64,000 bases of DNA from an uncultured Planctomycetia bacterium (lineage in GTDB: Bacteria; Omnitrophota; Gorgyraeia; 2-02-FULL-51-18): assembly GCA_964606485.1 (NCBI GenBank), contig CAZSGP010000002.1, positions 319,620 to 383,619 on the forward strand, read 5' to 3'. The notes under the pieces are model-generated. The model searched no databases, was not told the origin of the DNA, and saw only the letters and a list, made by a program, of their open reading frames with translations. How positions within the stretch are numbered: position 1 is the first letter of the stretch; the number at the start of each line of letters is the position of its first letter. Position numbers and translations under genes: made by a program. Positions 3,745-63,812 of the stretch are shown here, piece by piece.

Positions 3745-3814
3745 TTCTTTTAAACTCCTCTAAAATTTTTATGTGAAAACTTGGTTGTTAGACTATCAAG
3801 AAAAAAGCTCTTTT

Positions 3815-20969: not shown

Positions 20970-20973
20970 GGCC

Positions 20974-22782: not shown

Positions 22783-22795
22783 GTTCATTCTTCCT

Positions 22796-39870: not shown

Positions 39871-39985
39871 CTACCTCCCCGGCACTTCGTGTCCGCCCCT
39901 CCTTGGTAGGGAGGGGAAATCCTACTCGTCTTTCCTCCCCTTACCAAGGGGAGGTGTCCACCGCAGTGGACGGAGGGGTCTAAAC
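39871..39985. repeat. 110-nt multi-hairpin intercistronic repeat element, copy A (suf region)
   Basis: Contains the palindromes CCCCTCCTTGGTAGGGAGGGG, TCCCCTTACCAAGGGGAGG and GTCCACCGCAGTGGAC. Near-identical to copies at 40565 and 43797. It lies directly upstream of the nadA start. Confidence 0.8.
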
Positions 39986-42353: not shown

Positions 42354-43074
42354 CTCGCATCCCCTCTCTGACTAGCGCTTCAAGCTGGCTACGCACAGTT
42401 CGGTCCTTAATTTGCTGTAAAATTTCATCCGCAAACCCATACACCAGCAAGCTTTTGGCTTGGTCTTCGCTCAAACCCCGACTCTTCAAATAAAAAAGCT
42501 CGCGCTCATCGATCTGCCCCACGGTTGCGCCGTGCGCGCAGGAGACATCGTCGTTTTCAATTTGAAGCTCAGGCTTTGCATCCGCATGCGCTCCGCTTGA
42601 TAACAGTAAATTTTTATTGAGCTGCTTCGAATCAGACTTCACCGCGTCTTTGTGCACATGGACAAGGCTTTCAAAATCCGACCGAGACTCATCGAGTAAA
42701 ATATTTTTAAAAATTTGACGGCTTGTGCAGCGGGGCGTCGAGTGCTCCACGCGCGCTTTGTGGGATACGCGTGATTTTCCTTTCAAGAGAGACAACCCTT
42801 TTAAATCCGCCTCCGCCCCTTCTCCATTAAACTCGACCACGTGTTCATTTTGAGCGTTCGTCCCACCGCTTGAAAAAGAAACCAGCGTTAGCTTTGCATT
42901 TTTCTCCAAATGAAAATGGTTTAAAAGCGCAATCGATCCATCTTTTTGGATTTGCGTTACCAAAAGCTCAGCATCTTCGCCAATCCAGGCTTCAACCCCT
43001 TCATTCTCGAGAGAGGTTTGAAGCGTTTGGCCTTTAGCGAGTTTGATTTGTTTGTTCATACCCTTTTTTCTCAA
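42331..43074 (-). CDS. sufD: Short SufD-like Fe-S assembly protein
   Basis: 247 aa with a SufD C-terminal beta-helix region ([23 protein letters not shown]). It overlaps the sufC end. Confidence 0.65.
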
Positions 43075-46846: not shown

Positions 46847-47998
46847 CTAGGCTAAATCTTTATAATAATCGATCGCTGTTTTCCAAGGAATAATTTCAAA
46901 ACCCTCCGCTGACTTCCGGGCGATTTTATCACTCAGCGAAACAATAAACAAAGGGACTTTTGGAAATTGGCTTTTAAATGCCTTCACAGCCAAATTATTA
47001 ACAATGGACCGGCCCGACTTGAGTTCAAATGCGGCCAAAGGCCCGCGCCCTCCTGACACGAGCAAATCAATTTCGTGTGCACCCTCTCTCCACAACGAAA
47101 ACTCGTGCGCTTTTCCAAAATAATCCCGGCACCGCTTTAACTCTCCAAAAAACCAAGTTTCAAATAAAATTCCCATTTCCGCGGGAGTGGGAGGGTCGTT
47201 TAACCTGTTTTGAATGGCCCGCACAACCCCGCAGTCAAAAAAATAAAATTTAGGACGGGCTTTTTTTCGCTCGCTCCGGTCCCAAGGCCACAAAAATTCT
47301 CCCAGCAAGGTATCTTCCAAAATAGAATAGTATTCCTTCACCGTACTAGATGGCACCGAGCATTCTCTTGAAATGTTCTGAAATTCGATCATTTGGCCGT
47401 TCGATTGAACGGCAATATTTAAAAATCGTTGAAACGCCCCAACGTTTCGGGTCAGGGCTTCTGCCTGAATCTCTTCTTTTATGTAAGTGGTGTAGTAGGA
47501 TTTTAAAAGCGCTTTGACTTCCTCAATTTCACGGCGGATAAAAAAGTCGCTGATTTTAGGAAGAGTGCCATACTCTAGCGCATCGGACACCCGAAACGAA
47601 TCACCTATTTCTTCGGCGGCCAAAGCATGAAGCTTGAGATCACGGGCCCTACCTCCCAGAAGGTTAGCTCCACCACGACGAAGCTTCCGAGCGCTGGAAC
47701 CGGACAAAATAAACCTCAAACCAAGCTCTTCAATCCCCTTTTGCACATAGTCAAGCAACGCGGGAACTTTTTGAATTTCATCTACGGCAACTAAACTTCC
47801 TTTTGGCAGAGCTGAAATAATCTCCCAAAAACGCCGCGGAGCTTGCTTAAACTCAAGCTCCTTTTCAGGATCCAAAAGATCAATCTGGTGTGCGCCTTTT
47901 AGGCTTTTTATTAAGGATGTTTTTCCGGTCATGCGCGGGCCAAACAAAAAGGCCGATGTTTTGACTTTCTGGAGATCCAAAAGACGATGAAATCGCAT
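46847..47998 (-). CDS. AAA-family ATPase with a DUF4143 domain
   Basis: 383 aa. Walker A GPRMTGKTS. The architecture AAA_14 + DUF4143 is inferred from motifs. Confidence 0.75.
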   Translation of the reverse strand: MRFHRLLDLQKVKTSAFLFGPRMTGKTSLIKSLKGAHQIDLLDPEKELEFKQAPRRFWEIISALPKGSLVAVDEIQKVPALLDYVQKGIEELGLRFILSGSSARKLRRGGANLLGGRARDLKLHALAAEEIGDSFRVSDALEYGTLPKISDFFIRREIEEVKALLKSYYTTYIKEEIQAEALTRNVGAFQRFLNIAVQSNGQMIEFQNISRECSVPSSTVKEYYSILEDTLLGEFLWPWDRSERKKARPKFYFFDCGVVRAIQNRLNDPPTPAEMGILFETWFFGELKRCRDYFGKAHEFSLWREGAHEIDLLVSGGRGPLAAFELKSGRSIVNNLAVKAFKSQFPKVPLFIVSLSDKIARKSAEGFEIIPWKTAIDYYKDLA

Positions 47999-48069: not shown

Positions 48070-51000
48070 CTACGCAGATGCTCCTATTGAGGCAAGCGAC
48101 GTCTTTGCAAACTCCACAAACTTCGCCCAGTCGAGCACGGCGAGCACTTTTAAGGAGAGTTTTTTGTAAAATTGTGTGTCGATAGTGGTAACTTTTTTAA
48201 TGGCCTGAAATGCCGCAGGCAAAAGCTCCGAGAACGAGTCGCTTCTTAAATTATTCCACATTTGCTTTAAAGTGTCGGTGACCGACGGCAATCGAGCAGC
48301 CGCCACAGCAAAAGTCGCACTCGCCGCAAATGGAATGGCGGATTTGCCATCACCAAAATTTTCAAAGACCACAGCACCTGCTCCATCAGCTTGGGCGAGT
48401 TTCAAGGCCGCGTCGCTGAGCTTGGAAAAATAGACCATTTCGTACTGATCGCGAGCCAGTCCCTGCAAAGCGTCGGAAGCGCCGTATTCTAAAAAGCGCT
48501 CCCCCGCTAGAGTTCCAAACTGCAACAGCACATTGCTTCCGGCCACAGCGCGAACGGATTTTATTTTAGAAGCGTAAAGCGAAAGCTCTTCGACACTCAA
48601 TTCTTTTTCGGTCACAATTCTTAAAACCACGGTGCGGTCGTTGGAGATGCCTGATTTCTGATAGAGCCTCGTGATCAAGCGCGTCACGCGTTCATTTTCG
48701 GAGTTCAGCTCTAACACTTCCGGTGACGCCATTTGAATCTGTTGACCCACGACGCGCGGTAAGACGGCAACGCTTTCGGAATTGAGTTTGTGTGCTTTTT
48801 CGCGCGTGGCTTCATCAAACGTTAACTTGCCGATGAAAACACGAGCCTCTTCCCCGACGTCACCTCGCCGGTAAAGCTCAACGGCAAGCCCTGCGTCTAC
48901 GAATTTAACTAAAGTAATTCCCGTTAAAAAGGAAAAGGGTCGAGACAATTCATCCTTCGAAAATTGCGCACCAACTTTGTCCGCCAAGCGCGCTAAGAGC
49001 AGAGTGTCAGACGCTTCGAAAGCGCTAGGCATGGATTTGATTTCGTTGGATGGAAGGCGTGCGCCGTAAATTTCTTTAAATGTCGGCACTAATTCTTCGA
49101 TATCCGGCACCTGATAAACCTTAAACGCGGTCTCGCCATTTAACGCGCCTTTATTTTTAAATTTGAGCGTGAATAATTCGGACTGCTGAGGATCTCCCCA
49201 GGCTTTCGGATAATACGGCCCGACATGATTGCCCCACTGACCCATTACAGCAAACGCTCCAGGCTTAAGTTCGCGGCCCAGCTTTTCCCGAAGAGCCGAT
49301 TGAAAACTTTCTCTCTTACCCACACCCAAACCGCTGGGTTGTGTGTAGTAAAAATAAAAAACATCAACCTGACTCCAAGACACCGCCAGTGCGTCCGTGT
49401 TTCCCAAAAATGTAAAATTGTCTCTGGGAACGAGTTGCCAAAATTTGGACTGAATCAGCACGTCCCGGGCGGCCCTCGAAATATCCGCGTCCTTTTCAAC
49501 CGCCGTAATTTTCATCCCGTACAGATAAGCCGCCACGGCAGAAACGCGGAAATCTCCGGAACCCATTTCAAAAAACTGCTTTCCTTCAAGCGACCCTTTT
49601 TCTTTTAATAATTTTTCAAACACTTCAAAAATACTCTTCAGATCCGTTGGTTTGTAGAAACTCGTGTCCGCTACCGCACCTTCCGCATCTTTGAATGCAT
49701 CACCCTGAGTTTCGTAAAACTTCTGAAGCTCTTGGAGTCTCGCCATTCGGCCCTGTTTGCCAAGGGCCAATCGCGCACCAACGCCCACCAGTTGTTGGTT
49801 GGGAGCTAAATCTGGAGCAATCTCTTTAAGAGGCGCTGTCGCTGCGAACATGGGTCGAGGGGCGAGCAGCTCTTGCATCAATTGCTCGGGAGCGGCTCCT
49901 GTCAAAATAAGACGCTCCCCCTTGGCCTCAAACGGCACGTAGGACAGCCAACCCTTTTTGATCGAGAACTCCACCTGATCTTTGGGAAGCGCTTTTAATT
50001 GAACTGTACCGAATGAAGTTCGATTTTTATTGTTGTTGAACGTATGAATCGGAACCAGAATCTCCGCTTTGGCATCTTTCGGATGGTCACGAAGAAAATC
50101 GTTCACTTGTCGGCTTCGACGATCTGTAAGATATTGATTTAGATTAAAATTCTCAACGGCCAGTGAAAGAGCCCCCGACTTCTCGTCAACTGCTAGAATT
50201 CCTAGACGCAAATCACGCACCACTTCTCTAAAATTAGCCCAAACAGACGCCTGTCCTGCTAACGGAATCCAGTAAAGTCGATATTTTTTTGCGCCAAGCG
50301 CGGCTTTGTTTAATTGGTAAAATGATCTCAAATCGGAAAGACGGGCGCCTTCCATCTCCACTCTTCTTTCTTTTGCGGGTTCTTCGGTCACCTTCTCATC
50401 AACAACCGTTGTGGGCTTTTTCTCGCTGAGTATCGCTTCCGCTGAAATACCCTCCTTAAGACTCCGATCAACTTCCCGGGGAGTTAACTGGCCAACTTGA
50501 GCATCTATTTGTTTCAAGATAGCGTCTGAACGAGTCTTTTTAATTTTTAATTCGGCGATTTCATTCGCCTTCTGCTTGATTTTTTCTTTTTCTGTGTTGG
50601 TTAATGCGAAAGCATCTTGGAGAATTTCAAGATCGCCATCGCGATTAACTTGAGTCTCTGCTCCATTCCACTGCTCAGCCAGCTCTTGTGTCATCGTTTC
50701 AAAAACCTCGCCCGTCATCGTGCCTTTAAGTTTTTCATCGCCCTCCAGCGTTAGATCTTGAGGAATGGGCGCATTCAGATTTTTGGCTACGAGCCGCTTG
50801 AGACGAAAAGCTTCGCGAGGCTCGATGTAATCGTGTTCCTTTAGGATCTCTGTCGTTATTTTTTCGATGTCTTTTTCACTAACCTCCTTAACGGCAGATG
50901 AATCGGCGGCGATACGACCGAGCGTGTTCAGATTGTCCAGCGTATTTGCGACGGAACCTTTGTTAACTTGCTCGGTAGCTTCGCTGGCTAAAGTGGCTAT

Positions 51001-54000
51001 AGGATCAAGCTCGCTAGTCAGGGAATTAAAATGTTTTTTTGCCGCGTCGTCGGCTAATGATGCAACCGCGTCGAACTTTTGGCTGACGGAGTTTTTAAGC
51101 TGTCGATCGACAACGGGCACAAATTCTTCTTTTAAGTCTTCAGGGAAGTATTTCCGGTAAACATCTTCAGGAGTAATTGAGTCGACGTATTTTTTGGCTA
51201 GGTCATAAGCGGCCTTCGCTTTTTTGGTGCGTTCAGAACCGGTTATTCGCCCGACCCAACTATCCTTAATTTCCGCCAAGGGAAGCAGAGCGACTTCATT
51301 GTTTTGGGCGACGGCGTCCACTGCCAAGTCATAAATTTCCTTATCACTAGCCCAGTGGACAGGCTCGTTGTCCTTTTCTGCTAAAAAGTCGGCCAAACGA
51401 AGAATTTCAAATCCACTGAGAGAATATTTTTTCCCATAGGGATATGCGGCTTCCAAAAACGAAATTAGTCTTGTTGAACTATTATTCATTCTACCAAGCG
51501 CTTGTATAGCGCTTTCACTTACGATTTTATATTTATCATTTAATAGCTCAATGAGCGCAAGAGCAATATTTGGTGCTACAGGGCCGATCCTGCCAAGAGC
51601 AAAAGCAGCTTCTAAACGAACAGATGGATCCTCGTCTTTTAACGCTTCAATCAGAGCAGGGATGACTTCTTTGGCGGCGGGGCCAATCTGTCCGAGGGTG
51701 ATGGCAGCATTTCTGCGGACAACCCGATCCTTGTCTTTTAATGCTTCAATCAGTGCAGGGATGGGTTCTTCGGCAGTGGGATCAATCTTACCGAGAGCAA
51801 CAATAGCTTGACTGTTACCCAGATCTTCGTCCTTTGACGCTTCAACTAGAGCGGGGATGGCTTCTTGGGCGGCGGGGCCGATTTTGCCGAGAGACTCGGC
51901 GGCGTAGTGACGGACAAGCCAATCTTTGTCTTTTAATGCTTCGATCAACGCTGGAACAACTTCTCTGGCGGCGGGGCCAATCTGTCCGAGGGCGGTGGCA
52001 GCATTTCTGCGGACAGTCGGATCTTTGTCTTTTGATGCTTCGATCAACGCTGGAATGACTTCTTTGGTAGCGGCACCTATCCTGCCGAGAGTTAGGACAT
52101 CACCGTGGCGCATAACCCCGCTCTCGTCTTTCAATCTTTCAAGGAGCGTAGGGATGGCTTCTTTGGCGGCGGGGCCGATTTTGCCGAGAGCAATGTATGC
52201 ATAACCCTCTTCATCTTTCAATGCTTCGATCAACGCTGGAATGACTTCTTTGGTAGCAGGTCCGATCTCTCCGAGAGCAATGGCGGCGCTTCTACGTAGA
52301 TGCAGATTTTTGTCTTTCAATGCTTCAATCAGAGCAGGGATGGCTTCTTGGGCAGAGGGCCCCATCTCCGCAAGGGTCCGCGCAGAACGAACGCGAATAT
52401 TTCCATCTTCATTTTTTAAATCTTCTATTAATTTTTTGATTTCATCGGATCCGGCCATCCGCGCGCCAACTTGGTTAGCTGAAATTTTTTCCAAATCACT
52501 CTGAATAGGAAACCGGACCGCATGCATCCAATAGGAAGAATCGCCTGACGGGCGAGCGGCTATATATTCAGCGAGCGCCTCTTTAAAGGAAGGCGCAATA
52601 ACTCTATGCGTCTCTTTTTTGGAGTCTACAGTAATTTCTTTTTGTTTTTTCACGACGATCACTTTTTTAAAATCGTTACCCATCACCCTGCTGGCCATAT
52701 CCAGCATCGTTTCTGGTACAAAAAATACGTCAATGGCAGAAGCGGAGACTGAGCCCTCCCTCTCCACTTCGGTCTTACCCAAGCGAACGTAAGGAAGCTT
52801 CGCATCCTTAAAAATTTGCATAACAATGATGGTGTGATTTAATCTTTCGCGCACATCCTCGTCGGTGGAATCATTTTCCACCACTACCGGTAACATTGAA
52901 AAAGGGGATCGGTCTCCGAGCGCCCGATCCAGATTTTGGTCTACGTCCTTCGATGCAGGCATAGCCACTCCATACACGCGGTCGTCATAGATCAAATCTC
53001 CACCTGCGTCCGGATAATCCAAATCCCGCGAAAATGCGAAGATCGTATCCGGTCTCTTTTCCATTATCGCCCGCCTCGATAAAATCCCATGCGTCATAAT
53101 ACTTTTCATATGTTTTTCGCGCGCTTTGTCAATTGATACATCAGCCATCCGCGCGCCGAAACCTTCGCTTTGGTCCACCCAATCCATACTAGCTCGAAAT
53201 ATCTCACCGATTTCAGGATCGTTTTTTAATTGGCTGATGACGCTCCGAGCTTTCTTAGAAACATCCGACAGGCTTGTCCGGGCGATATTGTTCAGGAAAA
53301 TGTAATTGTTCATTTGATAGTTGGTAGAAGTGTTTTTAGCTGGGAATTTGATCAATAAATGGGCATATTCCATGTCTTTTTCATCAAAAATATCGGGACT
53401 TGCGATTGATAGCGCCGGGAGAAGGTCCGACAATATTTCCTTTTCAAGGTAACTTAGATTGGCGGGCGCCTTTCTTTCGGATTGAATTCGCGCCAAGATC
53501 CGATAGGCCGCTTTTTTGTCACGGGAAAGCTGAAAATATTCATCAATTGCCTGTCTTGCAACAATCCGCTCCTTGTCTGTGCTGGCTAAATTGAAATAGG
53601 TTTCAATGCAGGTTGAATCGAGCGGATTGACGACACGCGCAACCGACTCTTGGAGTGCTGTCGTGACCGGCTCGCCCACAGCCGGCTTGCTGCTGTCTGA
53701 CAACCAAAAATAAATCTGCGCGGCGAGCAAAGGAACGGGTCCCATTAAAATGAAAACCTTCACAGCTGTAAGCGCATAAAGCCCCGTAAATAGAAGTGTT
53801 GTTCTTAGGAACAGTGTGAAGGCAATATCCTCAAGGCGGGTCTCTTTGCTGGTCGCCATCCCTGCCTGTCCGGCAGACAAACGCGCGCCGGCTAGAACTC
53901 TATTTAATTCATGCGGAAATTGTATGGGTGCATGCAAATGAACCGTCTCGTTTGTCGGTTCGATGTGAATAGTGTTTGGGGCTATAACCGAGAATTTAAC

Positions 54001-57000
54001 CCCCTCTCTAAAAATTCCTTTTTCAGCCCAATCTTGAAGCGCTTTGCTTACAAGCTCGGTGTCTTTAGTAGGATCTTTAAGGAGACTGAGATAGATTTTG
54101 TCTGATCCGAGTTGGATATACGGGCCCTTTAATGAGTCTTCGCCTTTGGTGATTAAATTAGCATTTTGAGTGGGCGTGCCGGAAAGGCGCGCGCCGGAAT
54201 TGAGCGCCGACAAATCCACATTCACCATGCGGTTTATAGCCGCTCCGACCGGGCGCAGTTTGGCTTCGATGACCACGGGCCTTGGGTAATCTTCGGAGCC
54301 GCTCGCTGGAAGCCACATGAGATCAATTTGGCCATCTAATTCAAATCCGTCCGGGACACCGATTGCTTTAAGCCTTTGGGACAAATAACGAACCTCGGCC
54401 TTAACCTGTTCATCCATCTGCTTGGAAAAACCGTCTTTTTTGCCTTCCGAAATCCCTGCCGCTTCATAAAGCGGCGCGTAAATAGTGGGCCAATAATCTT
54501 TCTGGGTCTGAGCTTCTCCGGTAATAAATGTAAAATACGACGAGCTCCCGACACGCGAATGCCAACCGCTCAAATTTTTATCCCCGTCCCTTTCTTTGAG
54601 CAGCACCACGTCGCCGCCGACCGTAAATTGATAGCGCGTCCTTAGCTCCAGCGCTTTACCGTGATAACGCAAAACGGGTGACAATGTCTCAGCCACTCCG
54701 TAATTCTCTCCTATAAACAATTCCCAAAATTCCCGCAATCGGCTAGCCGCATCTTCTCTACTAGCGTCAATAACCAATTGCGTGATTTCTTCAGACGGCT
54801 TGTCTAGGACTGGCACCTTACGGAAAGAAAAATGAGCCTTTACGCGCTGCAATTGATCATCAGACGCGATCGAGCGGTAATCGGCAAACGTGATCACAAA
54901 CGCTCCTTCCTGATTTTTTTCAATCATAAATATGCCATTTCCCATGCTCATCGAATTCGCTTTAACCACGATTGGCAGAGCGCGCGCGCCGCTCATAATT
55001 TCATCGAGCAGTTGGCGCGGTGTTCTGCTTCCTCCAGACGGAATCAGCTCAAGAACAGGCTGTTCCTCAAGAAGGCGGATGTGAAAGGGCTCCGGACCCT
55101 GCCATGATCCATTTACAAAGCGCTTTCCAAAAACCACGTATTCCGGTTGAATCATCGGACCCCCATCCAACAGGCGACGCATTTCGTATTTTCTCGAAAA
55201 CGTCTGAATTAGATTGTCGAATGGCACTTCACTAGCCGACAAGCGGGCACCCGATGATAATGCATCGGTCGGCCTCTGAACTAAAATCTGTCCCGGCTCG
55301 GTTAACCAATGCGTACTAGAGGACTTATTGGAGTCGGTGAAATAAGGCAACGCTAGACTCATATTCTTCGAAATAATCCCAGCGAGTGTTTTCACCTCTG
55401 AGACACTGTTTAGCAATACCTCTTTTTTAAATGTTCTATGAGAAAGAAGATGGGAAATTTTACCGATGCGAGGCTGATTGACGCCGGCCAACCATATTTT
55501 TAATTTTTGGTCCGGCTCTACCAGTATGGTGTAATAACTATCCCTGTAATTAGACTGGACGTAAATTAAGGTCCCTGGTATTTCATCGAATAAATTTAGA
55601 AATTCAACCTCATCCGGCTTCCGGGACGTGTCAAACTTAGGCGCCGCCTCGCTCGAAGAACCTGGAGCCCATGGTCCCGCAGACATCTCGGGATTATGAA
55701 ATTCATAAAACACTTGCCTTAGATATAACTGGCTCATAGCGACAAGCGGTACAGCAGCCGCCAGAACATCAATCCCTACGATGATAGCCGCAAACAATGG
55801 CATACCAAAATAAATCAATCCCAATGAGGTTATTCCGCCAAAAATAATACCCGCACCCCAATAGGCCAAGCGATTTTCATCTATTGAAATACCCAGAAGA
55901 ACATGGGTGGGTATTTCAGCCATCCTCGCCCCGTCCGGCAGGCGGTCTTTAGGAATCTCGTTACGATTTAGAAGATTTAGCTCTCTCTGGACTGCCTGAA
56001 CCGCTTCTTCCAAAAATTTTTTAAATTGATCTCCTGAATAATCTTTCTGTATTGCCTCTACCATTTTCTTCGACTCTTGGGCTAACGCTTTGGCCTTAGC
56101 CCAGTCCTTTGCTTCTTTCCTCACTGCATTGCGGTCCCCTTGAATTTTTTCATAAGCTCGATCCAACTTGGATGAAAAACGGCTATCCTCAATCAGCTCG
56201 GCTTCGGCGATATCTCCCTTAATCGCCGCAAATATTTGAAGCGCCATCCACATTTTTAAAACGACGCGGCCCCGAATGAATTGCCCCGGCCTCCAGGAAA
56301 CTAGGTATGCGTCCGCCATTTTTTCGGCTGTGACCAAGTCCATGGCTTCGATCCCGCGCTTGTTCAGCGCTCTGTACAAATTCAGAAAAACAATCTTGTG
56401 TTTCAAATCCGGTATGGATTCGACACTTTCAACAAGTTCCTTCGACGTTTTTTCATCCATCTCGGTCTTTATGGACTTTAGATTTTCGATCAACGATTCT
56501 AATTTCAAGACGTTCTCTTGGCTTAATTCATCAAAAAGCACCTGTTTTAATTTTGGGTTGGCGCTACTCCACTTTAAAACCGTTTTCATGGTCTCGGGTT
56601 CAACGTTTTCAAGCAGCGCCGCCGGCCCCCCACGCTGGCGCACCGTTTTCAAATCACCCGATTCATTGTAGGCAATCGCGGTGACAAAATTGGGGACGGT
56701 TTTTGAATCAAATAGACCTTTAAAATAGCGGTAGTACACCACCTCGTTCTCTTCCAAAACTTTTTGGTAGTTCTGAGCGACCGGACTCGTCAAGACAGTC
56801 TTTAAGGGGCTTGGCTCGGCGGGCGCCATCGCCTGGGAAGCCTCGGGCGACTGAGAAGACTCGACGGATTCTTGGTAATGGATGGAGGCTTGGGTCAATA
56901 AATGCGAGGTAGAAATTGGTAAAAGCGCTAAAAATAAACCGATCGTGAAAGGAAGCATTCGTCTAAGCAATTGATTCTGAGAGTTTGCCGCAATGATAAT

Positions 57001-60000
57001 TCCCAAATAAACGAGCGCTGTGCAAAGCACTCCGGGAATTCCTAAAGCCGTGTACGCTGAAAGCGCTCCGACAAGCATGCTCGCGGAGGCAGCGCTAAAG
57101 TTTGCCGGGCTAAGAGATGCGAATCGTGCACCGGCGGCCTTCAGAAAATTTATTCTTTTAGCCATTTCTGCCGACCGGCCAAAATCTGCCGCCAATCGCG
57201 GCGCAGTCACTGAGAGCTCCGGATCGTTTTTAAAATATTCTGAAATGTATGAATAAATATCGGCAATAGCATTTCTAATTTTTTGCTGTACTTGCTCTGG
57301 GGTGGCTTCGGCTGCATCCCGGCTCCACAGCTGCGCGACGGCACGAAGGCTTTTCTCATCAACAAGGTCCGTTTGTCCGCTTGCAACTTTCAGCGCCCCC
57401 CTAAACTTCAGCAGAAGGGCGTATTCCTCAATAACCTTCTGGCTTTTTGGAAGTCTTTCCAAAACCTCAAAAGAGCTCGAAAAAGAACGCAACTCAGGAT
57501 GCCGGCTTTTTTCATGCCAAACCAGAAAATGAATGGCGCGGATCACGGCCAATTTTATATTCAATTCTTTTGCGCCCGAAATGACCGGGGTTTGAACACT
57601 GTCTAATTCCTCCAAAAGTGCCTTCTGATGATCACTTCGAGAACTTCCATAGAGATTGTTAGCAACAATCCGTTGAATCAGCACCTGGTCATACTGGTCC
57701 CTGCTACCCGCCACAAAATAAATATCCCGAAACGTAGTCGGCGTGTTGCTGGGAACCTCTATATCGGCATCAATGGCTGGTTCGTATCTTTTTTCAAAAG
57801 GCGCCCATATTTCTTTTGCGCCACCCAGCTCTTCCAGAGATAGAAAATATTTATCCCCCAAACTCTCTTTCATTCCTTCATCCACATCCAGATCCGGCAG
57901 CTTGTATTCATCCACCCACTGCTCAAGCTGAATTTTAATCGCTTCGTGTATTTTTTTTGCATTTTCTTTATTTGCGGCGCTGACCGGAATAACCTTAAAA
58001 TCGATGTCCGAAAAATAAACCAACTCGTCTTTCCGGGCCAAGCTTCCGTAGCTAGCCACCACAAAATCATTCAAATCGACGCCGATCTTTTGCGACACGG
58101 CCTCCGCAGCTAAACGAACGGTTTGATTGAGCCAGCTCGTCATTGAAGTCGAAGCTTTTATCTGCCGCTCCCTATTTATTTCAGGAGCACTCGCTTCAAT
58201 CTCCACATCCCGTTTTAAATCTTTGTAAACTTGAACATGTTGCGCCATTGGATCTTCCGCCAACCGCGCCCCGCTCACGGGCATAAACTTCTCCAAAGCA
58301 GACTTATAAACAAACTCCGGCATCTCACCATCAATCTTGAGCAGTACGATTTCACCACTGGCCACCGCCGCCTTAAAATCGGTTTCATTTGAAATTTTCC
58401 ACCCCATGTTTTGCTCGATGCCAGGGATGAGAACATTTTTTGCTACGTGCCTTCCTTTTCCGGGAGGAATTTTAGAAAGCGCCTCTTTTGTGGGGAAAAT
58501 TCTAAAATGATATTTTTTTCCAAATCTAGCCAGCACATCAAATTCCATCAAGTCTGAATCTGTCTCCACCGTCGCCAGTGTAATTACAGCGCCCTGATCA
58601 AAGCTTTGGCCCTGATGCAATGCGCCGTTCACACCGCTAATCTTAATTTTCCATTGTCCTTCTTCAAAAAAAATCTCCGCATGCTTTCTGGAGATTGTTG
58701 AGCCTGGTATTGATATCTCATTCTCCGGATTCCGCCCAACGAAGTATCTTTTTTCAGGTGTAAGCGTTATAGGCGATCCGCTTGTCGTTGTGACTACTAA
58801 ATTTTTTCCGTCCAAGTGATAACCAAACTTGCCGTCCCCCAAAAACATCTCTTGGGTGGTAGGCTCGGTGGAAGTAGCGGCGGGCGCGCCAAATCGTTTC
58901 CGAAACTCCGCAATCACCGGTATCCTGTTGAGATATTTTTCAGAAACATCGACGTAATTAGTATTGGAGGGGTGCGATTGGCCTGCGTATTCTCTCGCTT
59001 GTTTTCGATACTCATATGCGGGAGTCGTAAAGGACCCACCCTTGACCCATTTTGCCCTTAAACCTAAAACTCCAATTTTACCGGTGGTTTCAATGCTACC
59101 AATCCACGATCTTCCATCTTTATCCGTCATAAAAATAAAACGTAGATTTTTATTGAGCGATCTAAAAACACGCGCGGTGACCATTCCATAAAGATTTGTT
59201 TGCATCGTAGTCTGATCTTTTTTGGGATCGAAACCCTCAAAATTAGGAGCATCCCCCGGGTCCGTAAACCGAACATCTTCGGGCCTCGGTTTTTTCGTAG
59301 AGTCCACCATCCCGAAACGGTCCATCACCAAAGAACCTTCCTTTAACCGCTGCGCGTTCCTGTCGATGGCCATTTTATAAGTCCCCTGTAAATCATAATT
59401 ATTCTGATAATCCCGTGTCGTTCCCGCAAAAATCAACTCTTGAACACGCTTATCTCTTATCTCAACAATTTTCTTTTGCTCGGAAATTTTGTTGAGCGCT
59501 ACTTGAATTTCAAAAGGAAGTGTAATGCTGTCTTCTCCAAAACCTTTGTCATACCAATCAATCTCTCCAAGCCCATCCAAGTAAACACTAGGCAAGTATC
59601 TCCACAATGCTTGGGAATTGCTCAAATAATAAGTTCTCGCCACGTATCTGTTTCCCGCTTTTACATAGGCAATCGCAGCCAGTCGTTTATCTTTCATTTC
59701 AAATAAATTCGATGCAAACAAAAGCACCTGCCCGTCCACATTAACCCGATGCTTGGGAATCATCCCTTCGCGTCTTAGCAAGTCCGTGGTCAAAAATTCA
59801 CCCTTAAAGGACCGTCCGTGAATATCCGTTTTAGCTAAAATCGCAAGCCCTTCTTCAGCGCCAATTTCGACAGGAGCATCGGCCTGGAGCGAAATTTCCT
59901 CATTAACCCCTGCCGGAGAAGCCAAAGAAACGTTAAACCTATCGATCATTTTTTCAACGATATTTTTGATGGCTTCCTTGGCTTGCGCAGGAATGGAGTT

Positions 60001-63000
60001 ATCGAGTGCATAGCTAAAAGCACCATCACCGCTTTCCGCGGAAAGATTACGAATGAGGTGAAGCCGATACTGACCCGGTTTTAGTGCGCTCGCTTTGCCA
60101 ATCGATAAAATATTTCCGTCAATCCCAATAATGACCTCTACGATAATTTTTTTGTACGTATTGCTCGACACAAGAGCGCTTTCGAAATCGTCGGATTTTA
60201 GTTTTTTGACGTTCGTCTGAAGAATGAGCTCGTCATCGTCCTTTAGATTGGCTCTCAGGATCGAAAGCACTTTTGTTTCTCCGGAGTCCATGTCTTCATT
60301 GTCTTGCGTGCGGCGTGAAGCGGCGGCTATTTCGATGAGCGGCAAGTACAAATCTCGAGGCATCCGGTAGGAGGCCACTAATTCATAAAACTCGCCGAGT
60401 TTTCCCGCCTTTGAAGCGTCCTTTAAATCGTCGGATTGTCTCAAGAAAAATTCGATTTCGGACATTTCGGTTAAATTCATTTTTCCGCTAAGATCTTCGA
60501 CTGCTTTTTTAAACAAAGATTGGTCGGCCAGCCATCCCATATCCACAAACTGAAGCGGCGGCACTTTCGTGCCGTTGGTTGATTCCAAATCTTGCACAAC
60601 TACCATCGGCAACCCTTGAGAGGCGTCCAAATGAATTTCAAAATGACGCGTTGAAATTCCAGGATCAGAGAGCTCGCTCGCATCCCGTCCTGCAATAAAT
60701 GGTTTGCCCGTCATAAGTTTCTGGAATGAGGGATCCAGTTCACGCGAATCACCGACTTGCGCATATTTTCTTAAAATAAATTCATCCCCTCTTTTTTCTA
60801 TCGCAAAATCCGTATTGCCTGCCCGCAGCAATGGCCTCGCTCCATCTTCGGTCATTGTCATAAAATAGGGTACGTTCGCGGTGAGGGGGGTTGTGAATAA
60901 ATCACTTGGCGCAAGGGAGGCTAAACGCGAACCGCTTGGAGGAGCGACCTCATCCATTCTCTGCAAAACCAGCTTAATCTGACTCTTTATGCTTTCGGGA
61001 TAACGCCTAAATGAGGGGCTTGTTACAACCGCCTGAACAGATTGCTTGAGCTTTGAAAGATCTTCCTTGGAAAGATTTCTTTCCTCTAGAAATTTATCAA
61101 AAGCTACTGAGATTCCGTTAAAATTTTTAGCTTCTTCCGCCCCAAATCCTGGAAACATCTTTCGCATATCCAGATTTATTTTTGAAATCAAGCTGTTAAA
61201 ATCAAGATATTGCGGCAATCCTAAGTCGAGATACTGAACCTTTGAGACTTCATTCTTTGACTTCACAACAAAATTATCGGGCTTCAAGTCGCCGATCGTG
61301 ATTCCCGTATCTGCATATCTATTGGCTTGGCTTATTAAAAGCCAGGCTCTCACAATAGTTTCGACCACGCTGGCGTATTTATCCCGCGTTATCCCGGTAA
61401 CTGCGCCGATCTCCACGCCGTTTTTCAAATCAACATACTCCCCAACCGTGAACCCCGTATATTTAACGGGCTTCTCGCCGATACCCATCACCAAGGGAAT
61501 GTAGCCATACACCTCGATGGCCACACCGTTTAACTCATTGTATTTCCTGAAAAGCTGCACTTCCTTTTTTGCAGTATCCTCACCGCCATTTTTTATAAAT
61601 CGGATTCCAATAACATGCGATTCGAGCACTCCATCTTTGTTTGAGGCTTCAATTTCCATTCTTAGAACGTATTTATAATTTCCCTCGCCCCCATAGCTAA
61701 TTTTTTTAATTTTTACTTCTTTTAAATTCTGAAGATTCGCCATTTCCAAAATTTTGTCCATATTTGAATAAATGTAGGGGACTGTCGCTTCATAATCCTG
61801 CGGATCAATCCCTTCCAAAATAGAGACCGCCATCCTCGCCCCCGCCGCCTTAAAATCATCCACCACGGCACTCACCTCTTGCGGCGTTGCCCCCGCTTCA
61901 CTTAAAAGCTCCGTAAGCGTACTAGGTCTATTTTCCGCAGCTGCGAGTCGTGCACCGGGGGCCGTCAACACAGGCCGAAGGTCATTATTTTTCTGCCTAC
62001 TTTTAAGCAAATCCTTCTCCAAAGCACTTAAAGGTTTATCCGCATGAGACTCGCCCTGCACCATCTCCACCTTTTTAATTTCTGCGTGCATGGGTTCAAG
62101 CAGCAGCTTTTCATATTTCTTTTGATTCGTTTCTGCCGTCACCACCGGCGTCAGCACCGCGATCGAATACCCCTTTTCGGAAAGGAGTTTCTTTAAATGC
62201 GGCGTGTGATAACCACCCGCGATCATAAACGCGGCATTCGCATTATTTTCAGCGAGCGCTTTTTCGGCATTTTGGAGAAACACGAAATCTCTCTTCGACA
62301 CCGTGTCATAAAAAGCCTCGAGCGACTTACGGCCTTCATCCAAAACCGGTTCAAGCACCAAAAGATCTTCGAAATATCCAAGCTCCGCGAGTTTTCGATT
62401 GATAAATGCTAAATAAGATAATGTTGAGAAATCGGGCTCATTGGCTTTAAACGTTTCAAAATCTTTCGTCGTCATTTGAATTTGGTAGGCTGTTTTGAGG
62501 AGTTTCAGGTAACGGTCGATGGAGCGAATAAGCCTAGTATCACTGGATTGCTTCGCTTCGCTCGCAATGACAGATAAGTAAACTTCGTCTTCGATGGCTT
62601 CCATTTCGCCTAGCAGAACATCCAGATCAATCGCAGAAAAAAACTGCAAGTATTCCGCGTATTTTTCAAGATGCGGAAACTTTTCAAGATTCACTCCCTT
62701 TACCTTTGCCATATTCAATGTGTTTAAAATTGGGCCAAGCCGCGAAAGCTTGTTGTCATTCCCGCGCAAGCGGGAATCAAGTTGATCCCCGCTTAAAGAT
62801 TGCGGGGATGACCGAAGCTCTTCCAACAATGCGGCCAGCTCGAGATTGGAGAGATTGAAATCGATTAATTTTTCCTGAAGCGAAAGCTCAACAAGTTTTT
62901 CAGCATTTGGGTACTTTTCGAGTTCTATTTTATTCTGAGAAGCCATCTCGAGCAGCGCTTTGAATTTTTTCTCAAACGAACTCTCCGCCCCATAAAGCTT

Positions 63001-63630: not shown

Positions 63631-63812
63631 AATTTTTTTATCATTATTAACTATTAATTAACTTCCTTATTATAAATTTTACATGAGATTTTAGCCATTT
63701 CAAGGCCTGGAGCCACTTTTTTAAGGTCTATAACCAATTGAAAACAAAGGGGTTATTGTGCTAGAATGCCATTCATAGCAACTTGTGACTTGAGCAAAGG
63801 AAAAAACAAGCA
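63631..63812. promoter_or_regulatory. AT-rich divergent promoter region between the giant gene and the hldD-like gene
   Basis: 182 bp at over 70% AT. Contains the palindrome TTAACTATTAATTAA and several TATAAT-like hexamers. Confidence 0.4.

What the first reader, a model, noticed from the sequence alone, without database searches (positions are those of the whole stretch)
49065..61956. Recurrent G-A-R-[L/M]-[S/A] pentapeptide (about 14 copies) punctuating the giant protein, often just before TM blocks or domain starts
Clear GAR[L/M/F/A] copies occur at aa 559, 597, 1787, 2167, 2567, 2794, 2881, 3146, 3248, 3492, 3722, 4428, 4618 and 4856. A weaker GARP copy sits at 930. Chance expectation for the GAR tripeptide in 5186 aa is roughly 1 to 2.

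Codons differ between copies (for example ggc-gcg-cgt versus ggt-gcc-cgc). Conservation is therefore at the protein level and is not a DNA repeat.

Copies at 2167, 2567 and 3248 sit 15 to 25 aa before each of the three hydrophobic blocks. Copy 3722 is exactly at the start of the HEAT array. Copy 1787 sits 50 aa before the NTase core.

This looks like a module-boundary, processing-site or targeting motif. One hypothesis is that the protein is a polyprotein cleaved by a dedicated protease. Another is that the motif marks internal signal-anchor-like segments. I do not recognise the motif.
Basis: seen in the sequence. Interest (0 to 1): 0.75.

Follow-up and report, generated by a model that had tools for sequence, protein, structure and literature searches.

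The report
Candidate cleavage motif in giant protein
A five-residue motif (Gly-Ala-Arg-Leu/Met-Ala/Ser) marks the boundaries between the unrelated modules of this 5,186-residue bacterial protein and of thousands of related Omnitrophota giant proteins, which all start with a protease-like domain; this suggests, without proving, that these giants are polyproteins cut into many separate proteins.

Summary
The 5,186-aa ORF (window 48070-63630, minus strand) has 15 GAR tripeptides where 1.5 are expected. Twelve fit GAR[LMF][AS], where 0.04 are expected. The other 15,360 aa of ORFs in the window have none.

The motif is a hallmark of a very large family: 10,170 cluster representatives, mostly from Omnitrophota MAGs, reaching 7,364 aa. 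Members share:
- a signal-peptide-like N-terminus;
- a ~480-aa N-terminal domain;
- hypervariable cargo modules;
- often a conserved ~190-aa C-terminal domain.

In 78 genome loci the family ORFs carry 187 GAR[LM][AS]. About 146,000 aa of flanking ORFs carry none. Motifs lie in low-confidence, Pro/Thr/Ala/Ser-rich linkers a median of 296 aa apart. They never interrupt a Pfam domain, and they keep their position at the edges of homologous modules.

The N-terminal domain models as a TIKI/EreA/ChaN fold. Its invariant residues are D-x-H, E, R and H, spaced as in the Ras/Rap1 endopeptidase RRSP.

Best reading: these are processing sites of a polyprotein, probably cut by the TIKI-like domain. Cleavage itself is not shown. 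I found no description of the family in the literature or the family libraries searched.

The parts
48070..63630 (-). Giant ORF, 5186 aa (identical to database protein P0061). Architecture: signal peptide, TIKI-like N-domain, about 16 cargo modules separated by the motif, conserved C-terminal domain.
63544..63630 (-). aa 1-29, signal-peptide-like N-terminus: K/R-rich start, 12-14 hydrophobic residues, then small residues at -3/-1 (G-F-A|G). Homologues have S-Y-A|A-P or S-Y-S|A-P.
   Evidence: Read directly from the sequence. Modelled as a helix, aa 7-32. No signal-peptide predictor was available, so this is an inference.
62071..63513 (-). aa ~40-520, conserved N-terminal domain. It has a TIKI/EreA/ChaN/TraB-like alpha/beta core with a ~280-aa helical insert (aa ~163-440). 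It is the only domain shared by all family members and is the candidate endopeptidase.
63391..63399 (-). D78-A79-H80, invariant D-x-H after strand 72-76. Counterpart of RRSP E3900-x-H3902.
63307..63309 (-). E108, invariant, 28 residues after H80. Same spacing as RRSP H3902-E3930 and Bcr135 H85-E113.
62290..62292 (-). R447, invariant. Counterpart of the conserved basic residue R4001 of RRSP.
62206..62208 (-). H475 of the G-G-Y-H motif, invariant, 28 residues after R447. RRSP has R4001-H4030, spacing 29.
61942..61956 (-). Motif copy 1, GARLA, aa 559. First site, about 40 aa after the N-domain. This position is conserved in most homologues, where the first site falls about 10-150 aa after the end of the domain.
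61828..61842 (-). Motif copy 2, GARMA, aa 597. Precedes the kinase-like module.
60919..60933 (-). Weak copy, GSRLA, aa 900. GSRL[AS] is a variant used by other family members.
60829..60843 (-). Weak copy, GARPL, aa 930. Sits ~50 aa before the first FHA region. Non-canonical at positions 4-5.
58258..58272 (-). Motif copy, GARLA, aa 1787.
57190..57204 (-). Weak copy, APRLA, aa 2143.
57118..57132 (-). Motif copy, GARFA, aa 2167. Lies 18 aa before hydrophobic block 2185-2239.
55918..55932 (-). Motif copy, GARMA, aa 2567. Lies 27 aa before hydrophobic block 2594-2636. The homologous module of P0066 ends at a motif within ~3 aa of the equivalent position.
55237..55251 (-). Motif copy, GARLS, aa 2794.
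54976..54990 (-). Copy GARAL, aa 2881. Non-canonical at positions 4-5.
54181..54195 (-). Motif copy, GARLS, aa 3146. The homologous module of P0102 ends at a motif at about the same place.
53875..53889 (-). Motif copy, GARLS, aa 3248. Lies 29 aa before hydrophobic block 3277-3310.
53143..53157 (-). Motif copy, GARMA, aa 3492.
52453..52467 (-). Motif copy, GARMA, aa 3722, at the start of the HEAT module. The HEAT modules of P0108 (motif at 1940) and P0058 (motif at 1192) align from exactly this residue.
50335..50349 (-). Motif copy, GARLS, aa 4428.
49765..49779 (-). Motif copy, GARLA, aa 4618, at the start of a module with a methyltransferase-like look. Homologous modules in P0126 and P0089 have a motif within ~10 aa of the same place.
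49051..49065 (-). Copy GARLP, aa 4856, ~140 aa before the conserved C-terminal domain. P0103, P0108 and P0167 have a motif at a similar distance.
48082..48648 (-). aa 4995-5183, conserved C-terminal domain of the family. It ends 3 residues before the stop codon. The tail consensus is A-[IV]-G-x-[AS]-A-COOH; here it reads ...SLASIGASA. No known family matches.
56914..57078 (-). Hydrophobic block, aa 2185-2239 (2-3 predicted membrane spans).
55723..55851 (-). Hydrophobic block, aa 2594-2636.
53701..53802 (-). Hydrophobic block, aa 3277-3310.
51463..52371 (-). HEAT-repeat array, Pfam hits over aa ~3754-4056.
58594..58746 (-). FHA domain, aa 1629-1679. Pfam reports a second FHA stretch; it is probably the FHA-like stretch near aa 978.

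Best explanation
The pentapeptide [G>A]-[A>S,T]-R-[L,M>F]-[A>S>T] is the recognition and processing site of a polyprotein.

The giant protein belongs to a very large, mainly Omnitrophota family. Members start with a Sec-type signal peptide and a TIKI/RRSP-like hydrolase domain. A string of unrelated cargo modules follows: kinase-like, FHA, HEAT and membrane hairpins here; DnaJ, GT2, HAD, RelA/SpoT, HATPase, histidine phosphatase, LOG and methyltransferases in relatives. Many members end in a conserved C-terminal domain.

I propose that a site-specific endopeptidase cuts the flexible linkers at each motif and releases the modules as separate proteins. The most likely enzyme is the family's own N-terminal TIKI-like domain. 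It could act on its own chain and on paralogues in the same cell.

The scissile bond is probably [L/M]|[A/S], by analogy with the MARTX CPD (P1 Leu, small P1'). R|[L/M] is the alternative, because Arg is the least tolerant position.

Shown:
- the motif is real, specific to the family, selected at the protein level, and located at module boundaries;
- the N-domain has a TIKI-type fold and a complete catalytic residue set.

Inferred:
- that cleavage happens at all;
- which enzyme does it and at which bond;
- that the protein is exported.
For: 1. Enrichment and specificity.
- Window protein: 12 canonical copies against 0.04 expected. None in 15,360 aa of other window ORFs.
- 78 genome loci: 187 copies in 148,639 aa of family ORFs. 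The flanking ORFs gave 6, and all 6 turned out to lie in the tail of a neighbouring family member. The true control is therefore 0 in ~146,000 aa.
- 118 further representatives: 380 copies against 3.5 expected.

2. The information is confined to five residues; the flanks are unconserved. Tolerated substitutions follow chemistry, not codon distance. Position 5 accepts A, S, T, V, P and G but not D or E. Position 3 is Arg, with Lys only ~5x enriched.

3. Boundary location.
- All 13 Pfam domains or arrays found lie between consecutive motifs: two FHA and the HEAT array in the window protein; HAD, methyltransferase, CheR, DnaJ, GT2, DUF218, LOG, HATPase_c, His_Phos_1 and RelA_SpoT in relatives.
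- Median spacing is 296 aa.
- Upstream flanks are enriched in P/T/A/S.
- Both of the first two motifs fall in pLDDT<50 linker.

4. Positional conservation at the edges of homologous modules that sit at different absolute positions in different proteins.

5. Each protein or genome uses its own internally consistent variant: GARL, GARM, AARL, GTRL, GSRV. This is as expected for sites co-evolving with a recogniser.

6. Candidate enzyme.
- The N-domain is the only universal domain.
- The AF2 model has pLDDT 82.
- The invariant residues D78-x-H80, E108, R447 and H475 reproduce the RRSP set E3900-x-H3902, E3930, R4001, H4030, with spacings of 28 and 28 against 28 and 29 (PMC6254334).

7. Precedent. 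The MARTX CPD releases effector domains by cutting after Leu, before a small residue, in disordered interdomain linkers (PMC3153235).
Against: - There is no direct evidence of cleavage: no proteomics and no biochemistry.
- Other members of the superfamily are esterases (EreA/B/C), a haem binder (ChaN), or of unknown function.
- AF2 did not dock the first motifs into the active site.
- The motif variant follows the genome more than the N-domain lineage. This fits a single trans-acting enzyme per genome at least as well as cis cleavage.
- Distant N-domain homologues keep the catalytic residues but lack an obvious motif.
- A Sec signal peptide would place the N-domain outside the cytoplasm, yet many cargo domains are cytoplasmic-type enzymes.
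- There is an unexplained synonymous-codon bias in the motif, notably CGG. Some nucleotide-level constraint may also act.
Confidence: 0.5

Rival explanations
1. The motifs are cleavage sites, but the enzyme is a separate, genome-encoded protease, for example an Arg-specific protease cutting G-A-R|L or a C39-type 'double-glycine' peptidase cutting G-A|R. In this reading the TIKI-like N-domain has another role, such as an esterase or hydrolase acting on a target cell, or an export function.
For: - The motif variant is coherent across paralogues of one genome even when their N-domains are only 42-55% identical and their closest N-domain relatives elsewhere use another variant.
- Arg is the least tolerant position, as expected of a P1 residue.
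- Positions 1-2 (G>A, then A>S,T,G) resemble the GG/GA/GS of double-glycine sites. This resemblance is from my own knowledge.
- C39 and S8 peptidase domains have been reported in other Omnitrophota giant proteins (bioRxiv 10.1101/2023.11.21.568195).
Against: - No protease gene is conserved next to family loci.
- No C39, S8 or other peptidase Pfam domain is found in the window protein or in the seven other family proteins scanned.
- There is no conserved leader-like sequence upstream of the motif.
- The motif occurs only in proteins that carry the N-domain.
- One genome (JACQQX) has paralogues with different variants.
Confidence: 0.2
2. The motif is a non-proteolytic short linear motif. It would be a repeated docking or recognition element in the linkers, for instance for a chaperone, an export machine, a modifying enzyme acting on the Arg, or the protein's own N- or C-terminal domain. 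The giant would then function as one chain.
For: - The motif is short, sharply delimited, and sits in disordered linkers.
- A motif-like A-R-[LM]-[AV] is part of the last helix of the conserved C-terminal domain, ~8 residues before the conserved A-[IV]-G-x-[AS]-A C-terminus. Cutting there would release only a tiny peptide.
- There is no evidence of fragments.
Against: - Such a motif would have no obvious reason to sit at essentially every module boundary, including just before membrane hairpins and immediately after the N-domain.
- The conserved catalytic-type residues in the N-domain point to an enzyme.
- The pattern of a hydrophobic residue followed by a small residue is typical of protease subsites.
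Confidence: 0.15
3. The motif is primarily a junction for module shuffling. A conserved short coding sequence at module borders would promote in-frame recombination of cargo cassettes between paralogues. The proposed analogy is the VENN motif of CdiA or the PxxxxDPxGL motif of Rhs. This could hold on top of a cleavage role.
For: - Cargo is hypervariable even at syntenic loci, and most modules of the window protein have no homologue.
- Modules recur in different orders and positions in different proteins, always bounded by the motif.
- Synonymous positions are biased towards one nucleotide version, C GGC GCG CGG CTG GCG.
Against: - Amino-acid conservation far exceeds nucleotide conservation. 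Third positions within the window gene are near random.
- Substitution tolerance follows residue size, not nucleotide distance.
- 15 nt is very short for homologous recombination.
- Invariant Gly and Ala residues in the N-domain show the same GGC/GCG preference, which suggests general codon-accuracy selection.
Confidence: 0.1
4. The motifs mark internal translation starts. Position 4 would be an NTG start codon and position 5 the small second residue that allows Met removal, so modules would be made as separate proteins without proteolysis.
For: - Position 4 is L, M or V-like, and its codon is NTG in 75% of 187 sites against ~43% expected for Leu.
- Position 5 accepts A, S, T, V, P and G, the residues that permit Met removal. 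The rule is from my own knowledge; the counts are.
Against: - 25% of sites use CTC, CTT, CTA or TTA, and some use Phe or Ala codons, which are not starts.
- The invariant G-A-R upstream is conserved as amino acids.
- There is no Shine-Dalgarno-like element, and the spacing would be zero.
- Continuous ORFs of up to 7,364 aa are maintained without stops.
Confidence: 0.03
5. The motif marks internal signal-anchor or membrane-targeting segments.
For: - Three copies in the window protein precede hydrophobic blocks by 18-29 aa.
- Family-wide, 29% of internal hydrophobic blocks start within 40 aa after a motif, against 10% at random.
Against: - Most motifs are nowhere near a hydrophobic block. There are 268 loose-pattern motifs in the locus ORFs and about 60 internal blocks in those ORFs plus the window protein.
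- Motifs equally precede HEAT, DnaJ, methyltransferase and other soluble modules.
Confidence: 0.02

Closest known systems
MARTX toxins (multifunctional autoprocessing repeats-in-toxin), processed by the InsP6-activated cysteine protease domain (CPD)
   Same: - One giant secreted polypeptide carries several unrelated enzymatic modules between conserved terminal regions.
- A protease domain within the same chain cuts at several sites.
- The sites lie in disordered interdomain linkers, with a hydrophobic P1 (Leu) and a small P1' (Ala > Ser).
- The module repertoire is variable.
   Different: - No RTX repeats and no Peptidase_C80/CPD domain were detected.
- The candidate protease here has a TIKI/EreA-like fold and sits at the N-terminus.
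- The site is a five-residue code with an invariant Arg, not just a P1 Leu.
- There are up to ~20 sites per protein, against 3-4.
- The N-terminus looks like a Sec signal rather than a C-terminal type I secretion signal.
- The host phylum is Omnitrophota.
TIKI superfamily endopeptidases: RRSP (the Ras/Rap1-specific endopeptidase of MARTX) and animal TIKI1/2. The same fold is shared by EreA/B/C, ChaN, TraB/PrgY/GumN, HopBA1 and the PMT C2 domain.
- The invariant acidic-x-His, Glu, Arg and His residues have the same order and spacing as the RRSP 2His/2Glu+Arg set.
- RRSP is a sequence-specific endopeptidase.
   Different: - No sequence-level match to the Pfam models of this superfamily.
- Asp replaces the first Glu.
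- A ~280-aa helical insert separates the two halves of the active site.
- Known members cut a foreign substrate once, not their own chain many times.
- Activity is untested here.
Viral polyproteins (picornavirus, flavivirus, nidovirus, alphavirus)
   Same: - One ORF encodes many mature proteins.
- A protease is encoded within the same ORF.
- A short consensus at every junction co-evolves with that protease.
- Some products are membrane-anchored.
   Different: - This is a cellular, chromosomal gene flanked by housekeeping operons.
- It is present as many paralogues per genome.
- The cargo is hypervariable rather than a fixed replication set.
Junction motifs of polymorphic toxins: VENN in CdiA and PxxxxDPxGL in Rhs/YD proteins (comparison from my own knowledge)
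   Same: - A conserved N-terminal part and variable downstream cargo are demarcated by a short conserved peptide motif.
- That motif is thought to serve cleavage (Rhs) and/or cassette exchange.
   Different: - There are many junctions per protein here instead of one.
- A conserved C-terminal domain follows the cargo.
- No small immunity gene lies downstream. The next gene encodes an AAA_14/DUF4143 ATPase.
Omnitrophota giant proteins described so far: Archaeovorins and dockerin-type giants (West-Roberts et al. 2023 preprint; Seymour et al. 2023)
   Same: - Same phylum, very long ORFs, few annotated domains.
- Both papers leave open whether the products are cleaved. [quoted passage not shown]
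   Different: - Those giants are longer than 20-30 kaa, rich in adhesin and carbohydrate-binding repeats and membrane spans, and carry C39 or S8 peptidase domains.
- The present family is 1-7 kaa and is defined by the TIKI-like N-domain, the GAR[LM][AS] code and a conserved C-terminal domain.
- None of these three features is mentioned in those papers.

Membership tests
TIKI / EreA / ChaN / TraB superfamily (N-terminal domain, aa ~40-520) | Alpha/beta fold with a central parallel beta-sheet flanked by helices | tested here: inconclusive
   - The AF2 model has pLDDT 82.
- Foldseek against the PDB gives no significant hit; 2rad has E=0.67 and HopBA1 E=1.7. The large helical insert probably explains this.
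TIKI / EreA / ChaN / TraB superfamily (N-terminal domain, aa ~40-520) | Catalytic 2His/2Glu set plus a conserved basic residue, in the order E-x-H ... E ... R ... H | tested here: met
   D78, H80, E108, R447 and H475 are invariant in 24 sequences down to 20% identity. The spacings are H80-E108 = 28 and R447-H475 = 28. RRSP has 28 and 29, and Bcr135 has H85-E113 = 28. Asp replaces the first Glu.
TIKI / EreA / ChaN / TraB superfamily (N-terminal domain, aa ~40-520) | Sequence match to curated models of the superfamily (Pfam TraB_PrgY_gumN, Erythro_esteras, Cofac_haem_bdg) | tested here: not met
   No Pfam or NCBIfam hit on aa 1-1800 at E<0.01 apart from FHA. A profile search against PDB sequences found nothing.
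TIKI / EreA / ChaN / TraB superfamily (N-terminal domain, aa ~40-520) | Demonstrated peptidase or esterase activity | not testable with these tools
   Needs biochemistry.
MARTX toxins | Glycine-rich RTX-type repeats at both ends and type I secretion | tested here: not met
   No RTX or HemolysinCabind hits. The N-terminus looks like a Sec signal peptide.
MARTX toxins | Cysteine protease domain (Peptidase_C80) that autoprocesses the toxin | tested here: not met
   No C80 hit in the window protein or in seven relatives.
MARTX toxins | Several unrelated effector modules separated by disordered linkers that carry a conserved cleavage consensus | tested here: met
   Only the arrangement is met; cleavage is not shown.
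Polyprotein with cis-encoded protease (viral type) | A short consensus at each junction between mature products | tested here: met
   The motif sits at module boundaries and is position-conserved in homologous modules.
Polyprotein with cis-encoded protease (viral type) | Mature products detectable as separate polypeptides | not testable with these tools
   No proteomic data were accessible.
Polyprotein with cis-encoded protease (viral type) | Site consensus co-varies with the protease encoded in the same chain | tested here: inconclusive
   Variants correlate with N-domain similarity (nearest-neighbour Spearman 0.52). Within genomes, however, paralogues share the variant irrespective of N-domain lineage, with one exception.
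C39 double-glycine leader processing | G-[GAS] at -2/-1 preceded by a conserved leader (LSxxELxxIxGG), plus a C39 peptidase | tested here: not met
   Positions 1-2 fit G-[A/S/T/G]. There is no upstream conservation and no C39 domain in the proteins scanned.
Polymorphic toxins (CdiA/Rhs type) | A single variable C-terminal toxin after the junction motif, followed by a cognate immunity gene | tested here: not met
   There are many modules and a conserved C-terminal domain. The downstream gene encodes an AAA_14/DUF4143 ATPase, and the SUF operon follows.

The most novel reading that the evidence does not exclude
Omnitrophota (and MAGs filed near them) carry thousands of chromosomal 'polyprotein' genes. 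Each is exported and then cut at a five-residue code, G-A-R-[L/M]-[A/S], by a previously unrecognised TIKI/RRSP-type site-specific endopeptidase at its own N-terminus. Cutting would release up to ~20 unrelated enzymes, membrane proteins and scaffolds per gene. This would be a cellular counterpart of viral polyprotein expression, or a MARTX-like multi-effector delivery system, with lineage-specific cleavage codes (GARL, GARM, AARL, GTRL, GSRV). It would give the first cleavage map for bacterial giant proteins.
Probability: 0.35. Interest if true: 0.9.

Novelty: new variant of a known kind. Interest (0 to 1): 0.8.

Why it matters
Giant ORFs are a signature of Omnitrophota and other ultra-small, possibly predatory or parasitic bacteria. 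Their functions are called 'poorly understood'. [quoted passage not shown]

This finding supplies three things:
- a concrete, easily searched candidate cleavage code;
- a candidate enzyme with named catalytic residues;
- a family definition covering about 10,000 protein clusters.

If the reading is right, several gains follow:
- Giant proteins could be split in silico into their real functional units for structure prediction and annotation.
- It would reveal a new substrate logic for the TIKI protease superfamily.
- It would show that cellular organisms use polyprotein expression on a large scale.
- The modules (RelA/SpoT, kinase-like, FHA, LOG, phosphatases, DnaJ, glycosyltransferases) would become candidates for effectors delivered to host or prey cells.

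If no cleavage occurs, the motif is still an unusually strict, family-wide linker signal that needs an explanation.

Tried and rejected
- **Cargo segments aa 2100-3550 and aa 4428-5186.** No homologue was found in the word-indexed 5.8-billion-protein search. Motif conservation therefore had to be tested through the N-domain family.
- **Sequence-level identification of the N-domain.** Pfam, NCBIfam and a PDB sequence profile gave nothing.
- **Foldseek against the PDB.** No significant hit. The afdb50 library was not available.
- **AF2 'self-docking' test** (aa 34-640 with a 12-sequence alignment). Both motifs stayed at pLDDT<50 with no sign of packing, so the test is inconclusive. Coordinates cannot be inspected.
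- **Search for a conserved neighbouring protease.** Recurrent neighbours are only nuo genes and an epimerase, that is, synteny of orthologous groups.
- **Stand-alone N-domain proteins as trans proteases.** The apparent cases were an assembly gap, a frameshift and a contig end.
- **C-terminal domain.** No Pfam or PDB match.
- **DNA-repeat explanation.** Rejected.
- **Chance or compositional explanation.** Rejected.
- **Pooling artefact as the cause of the codon bias.** Rejected by per-protein expectations and by the composition of flanking codons.
- **Literature searches.** No paper combined Omnitrophota with polyprotein, TIKI or TraB. Searches for the words GARLA, GARMA and GARLS gave nothing relevant among the papers listed.

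Full report
**The object**

The finding lies in one ORF on the minus strand, window 48070-63630, encoding 5,186 aa. The rest of the window is ordinary chromosomal housekeeping. It holds the SUF Fe-S system, NadA, glutamate synthase, MetH, ThyX, sulfite reductase and leucyl aminopeptidase.

**Checking the observation**

There are 15 GAR tripeptides; 12 fit GAR[LMF][AS] and three are off-consensus (GARPL 930, GARAL 2881, GARLP 4856).
- Two weaker copies were missed: GSRLA 900 and APRLA 2143.
- GAR is the most over-represented tripeptide in the protein, 15 against 1.52 expected (P about 1e-10).
- The five-residue pattern is expected 0.043 times and occurs 12 times (P about 9e-26).
- The other 37 ORFs of the window (15,360 aa) contain 4 GAR against 4.8 expected. 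None is followed by [LM][AS]. That set includes the multidomain GltB and MetH.
- At the DNA level, the 30-nt flanks of the copies are at random identity and third codon positions are 0.32 identical. This is not a DNA repeat.
- The three hydrophobic blocks begin 18, 27 and 29 aa after copies 2167, 2567 and 3248.

**The motif defines a family**

The first 1,600 aa find 53 homologues of 880-2,781 aa. They share only the first ~520 residues, and sources name several of them as Omnitrophota or Omnitrophica. Most of these homologues carry several GAR[LM][AS] copies themselves: 127 GAR against 34 expected. P0007, P0014 and P0016 have six GARL[AS/T] each, and P0015 has six GARM[AS].

A scan of one genome per species returned 78 loci in MAGs. 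Most are labelled Omnitrophota; some are labelled 'uncultured Planctomycetia' or 'Eisenbacteria'. Some genomes hold ten or more paralogues.

| Sequence set | Residues | GAR[LM][AS] copies |
|---|---|---|
| Family ORFs in the 78 loci | 148,639 aa | 187 |
| Flanking ORFs in the same loci | 148,986 aa | 6 |

All six of the flanking hits lie in one 3,238-aa ORF, which is the tail of the adjacent family member. The true control is therefore 0 in about 146,000 aa.

An exhaustive profile search finds 10,170 cluster representatives at E<=1e-3, and 6,903 at E<=1e-30. Many are 4,000-7,364 aa long. In 118 new representatives (349,728 aa) the motif occurs 380 times against 3.5 expected. Over 531,000 aa of family sequence, GARLA is 174-fold enriched.

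**Anatomy of the motif**

Only five positions carry information. There is a weak S/A preference at -1 and E at +5. A one-mismatch scan gives these tolerances:

| Position | Accepted residues |
|---|---|
| 1 | G > A |
| 2 | A > S, T > G |
| 3 | R, essentially invariant (K only ~5x enriched) |
| 4 | L and M (M is 320x enriched) > F, A, V, I |
| 5 | A > S > T > V, P, G |

D and E at position 5 are excluded although they are one nucleotide away. Selection therefore acts on the residues.

Some members use other, internally consistent variants:
- GTRL[AS]: 13 copies in P0086;
- GSRV or GSRA;
- GARA;
- SRMS;
- AARLA.

The choice of L or M is strongly heterogeneous among proteins (permutation p<5e-5).

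**Location**

- Spacing between consecutive motifs has a median of 296 aa (interquartile range 167-492).
- Upstream flanks are enriched in P, T, A and S and depleted in hydrophobic residues.
- Every Pfam domain or array detected lies between consecutive motifs and none is split by one. These are FHA x2, the HEAT array, HAD, a methyltransferase, CheR, DnaJ, GT2, DUF218, LOG, HATPase_c, His_Phos_1 and RelA_SpoT.
- The first motif follows the N-domain by about 10-150 aa in most members that have one.
- In an AF2 model of aa 34-640, both of the first motifs fall in pLDDT<50 linker.

Most cargo modules of the window protein are orphans. The few with relatives in other family members keep the motif at the same edge:
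- The HEAT module aligns from exactly the G of GARMA 3722 to motifs at 1940 of P0108 and 1192 of P0058.
- The module starting at 4618 matches modules of P0126 and P0089 that have a motif within ~10 residues.
- Module ends at 2567 and 3146 coincide with motifs in P0066 and P0102.

Family-wide, internal hydrophobic blocks start within 40 aa after a motif about three times more often than at random (29% against 10%). Most motifs are not near such blocks. This fits modules that are whole proteins, some with N-terminal anchors.

**The shared N-terminal domain**

An alignment of 24 sequences down to 20% identity has ten invariant columns: D78, H80, Q86, E108, G109, F440, R447, G473, H475 and P495.

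The AF2 model (pLDDT 82, pTM 0.70) shows a small alpha/beta core with a long helical insert.

The RRSP structure paper defines the catalytic 2His/2Glu set as E3900, H3902, E3930 and H4030, plus the essential R4001. It gives the Bcr135 pair as H85/E113. The invariant residues here have the same order and almost the same spacing: D78-x-H80, then 28 residues to E108; R447, then 28 residues to H475.

Against this, Foldseek finds nothing significant, and no curated sequence model matches.

The N-terminus of family members looks like a Sec signal peptide: a basic start, a 12-14-residue hydrophobic core, then S-Y-A|A-P-type sites. This is an inference from sequence only.

**A second conserved end**

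About 190 residues at the extreme C-terminus are conserved in at least 45 complete members, including the window protein (aa 4995-5183). The domain ends three residues before the stop codon. The tail reads A-[IV]-G-x-[AS]-A, and a motif-like A-R-[LM]-[AV] lies ~8 residues upstream. It matches no Pfam or PDB entry.

The family architecture is therefore: signal peptide, TIKI-like domain, variable modules separated by the motif, conserved C-terminal domain.

**Interpretation**

A strictly conserved, residue-selected pentapeptide sits in the flexible linker at nearly every junction between unrelated modules. It is restricted to proteins that carry a protease-type domain, and its variants are coherent within a protein or genome. 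This is the pattern of polyprotein cleavage sites.

The nearest worked example is the MARTX toxin. Its CPD releases effector domains by cutting after Leu, before a small residue, in disordered interdomain linkers. By analogy the bond would be [L/M]|[A/S]. The invariance of Arg keeps R|[L/M] open.

The obvious candidate enzyme is the N-terminal TIKI-like domain. The weak points are:
- No cleavage has been observed.
- The fold call is moderate.
- AF2 gave no docking.
- The motif variant tracks the genome more than the N-domain lineage. CAYSKO paralogues with 46-48% identical N-domains all use GARM, while their closest relatives elsewhere use L-type sites. This fits either a separate trans-acting enzyme or N-domains that act on all paralogues of a cell. 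One genome (JACQQX) does have paralogue-specific variants.

**An unexplained extra**

Across the 78 loci the synonymous positions of the motif are biased.

| Codon | Observed | Expected |
|---|---|---|
| GGC | 128 of 187 | 68 |
| GCG | 106 of 187 | 71 |
| CGG | 99 of 187 | 38 |
| CTG | 66 of 153 | 37 |

The codon before the motif ends in C in 50% of cases. The bias survives per-protein expectations, and flanking codons are not affected.

Invariant Gly and Ala residues of the N-domain show the same GGC/GCG preference, which suggests accuracy-type codon selection. The invariant Arg447, however, prefers CGC, not CGG. A nucleotide-level contribution, such as recombination microhomology or an RNA feature, cannot be excluded.

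Internal translation starts are unlikely. A quarter of the sites use non-start codons, and the upstream G-A-R is conserved as protein.

**Novelty**

Two papers on Omnitrophota giant ORFs describe other classes, Archaeovorins and dockerin-type giants with C39 or S8 domains. They state that function and possible cleavage are unresolved and that cleavage points are unknown. No held paper links Omnitrophota with polyproteins, TIKI or TraB. Pfam (2025) and NCBIfam (2026) have no model for either conserved domain.

I rate this a new variant of a known kind, namely autoprocessed multi-module proteins. The claim of cleavage is still a hypothesis.

Noticed in passing
window 48082-48648 (aa 4995-5183) and tail 48073-48123: A conserved ~190-aa C-terminal domain is shared by at least 45 complete family members and ends 3 residues before the stop codon. 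The extreme C-terminus has the consensus A-[IV]-G-x-[AS]-A-COOH. About 8 residues upstream there is a motif-like A-R-[LM]-[AV], and some members have a full GARLA or GARMA there. It has no Pfam or PDB match and its function is unknown. It could be a sorting or secretion signal, or a pseudo-substrate.
   Followed up: partly
motif copies in loci L002-L079 and in window 49051-61956: The motif shows a synonymous-codon bias across the family: a consensus of C GGC GCG CGG CTG GCG, with CGG seen 99 times against 38 expected, and an NTG codon at position 4 in 75% of sites. Invariant Gly and Ala residues in the N-domain share the GGC/GCG preference, but the invariant Arg447 prefers CGC. The CGG/CTG bias is unexplained.
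   Followed up: partly
loci L010, L011, L036, L037 (CAYSKO); L035, L042, L043 (JACQQX); L003, L004, L027 (DATJEK): The motif variant (GARL, GARM, AARL or x[ST]R[LM]) is mostly a property of the genome rather than of the N-domain lineage. Genome JACQQX is the one exception, with paralogue-specific variants. This bears on whether recognition is in cis or in trans.
   Followed up: partly
window 63631-63700 (upstream of the giant gene's ATG at 63630): The 20 nt before the start codon are A/T-rich (taataatgataaaaaaatt) with no Shine-Dalgarno-like purine run. The gene is divergent from, or follows, an NAD-dependent epimerase-like ORF at the window edge. The same neighbour appears at loci L002, L009, L012, L020, L026, L029 and L032, so these loci are syntenic, yet their cargo differs completely.
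   Followed up: partly
window 52981-57333 and 48073-50349 (aa 2100-3550 and 4428-5186): These cargo segments, about 2,200 aa in total, have no detectable homologue in a 5.8-billion-protein word-indexed search. Even syntenic orthologues carry unrelated cargo, so module turnover is extremely fast.
   Followed up: partly
P0101, P0083, L026, L027 (family members elsewhere): Cargo modules include RelA/SpoT, HATPase_c, histidine phosphatase, LOG ('lysine decarboxylase'-like), a DnaJ J-domain (24 aa after a motif) and GT2. This repertoire is reminiscent of effector or toxin domains in conflict systems, though some could simply be metabolic enzymes.
   Followed up: no
window 46847-47998 (minus strand): The gene immediately downstream of the giant ORF encodes an AAA_14/DUF4143 ATPase. 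The only other contig found carrying it is a 6.6-kb assembly from run SRR12487046, which also holds the last 1,330 aa of the giant protein. No link to the motif was tested.
   Followed up: no
loci L045, L052, L070: These are apparent short or 'stand-alone' N-domain ORFs. They are explained by a run of N (L045), a frameshift or assembly break with the motif-bearing cargo continuing in another frame (L052), and a contig end (L070). No convincing stand-alone N-domain gene was seen.
   Followed up: yes
window 20974-21248, 42331-42353, 43034-43074, 39980-40079: Several housekeeping ORFs overlap their neighbours by tens to hundreds of bases in the mechanical ORF list. One example is 19413-21248 against 20974-22851. 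The cause is probably over-extended TTG or GTG starts rather than real overlaps.
   Followed up: no
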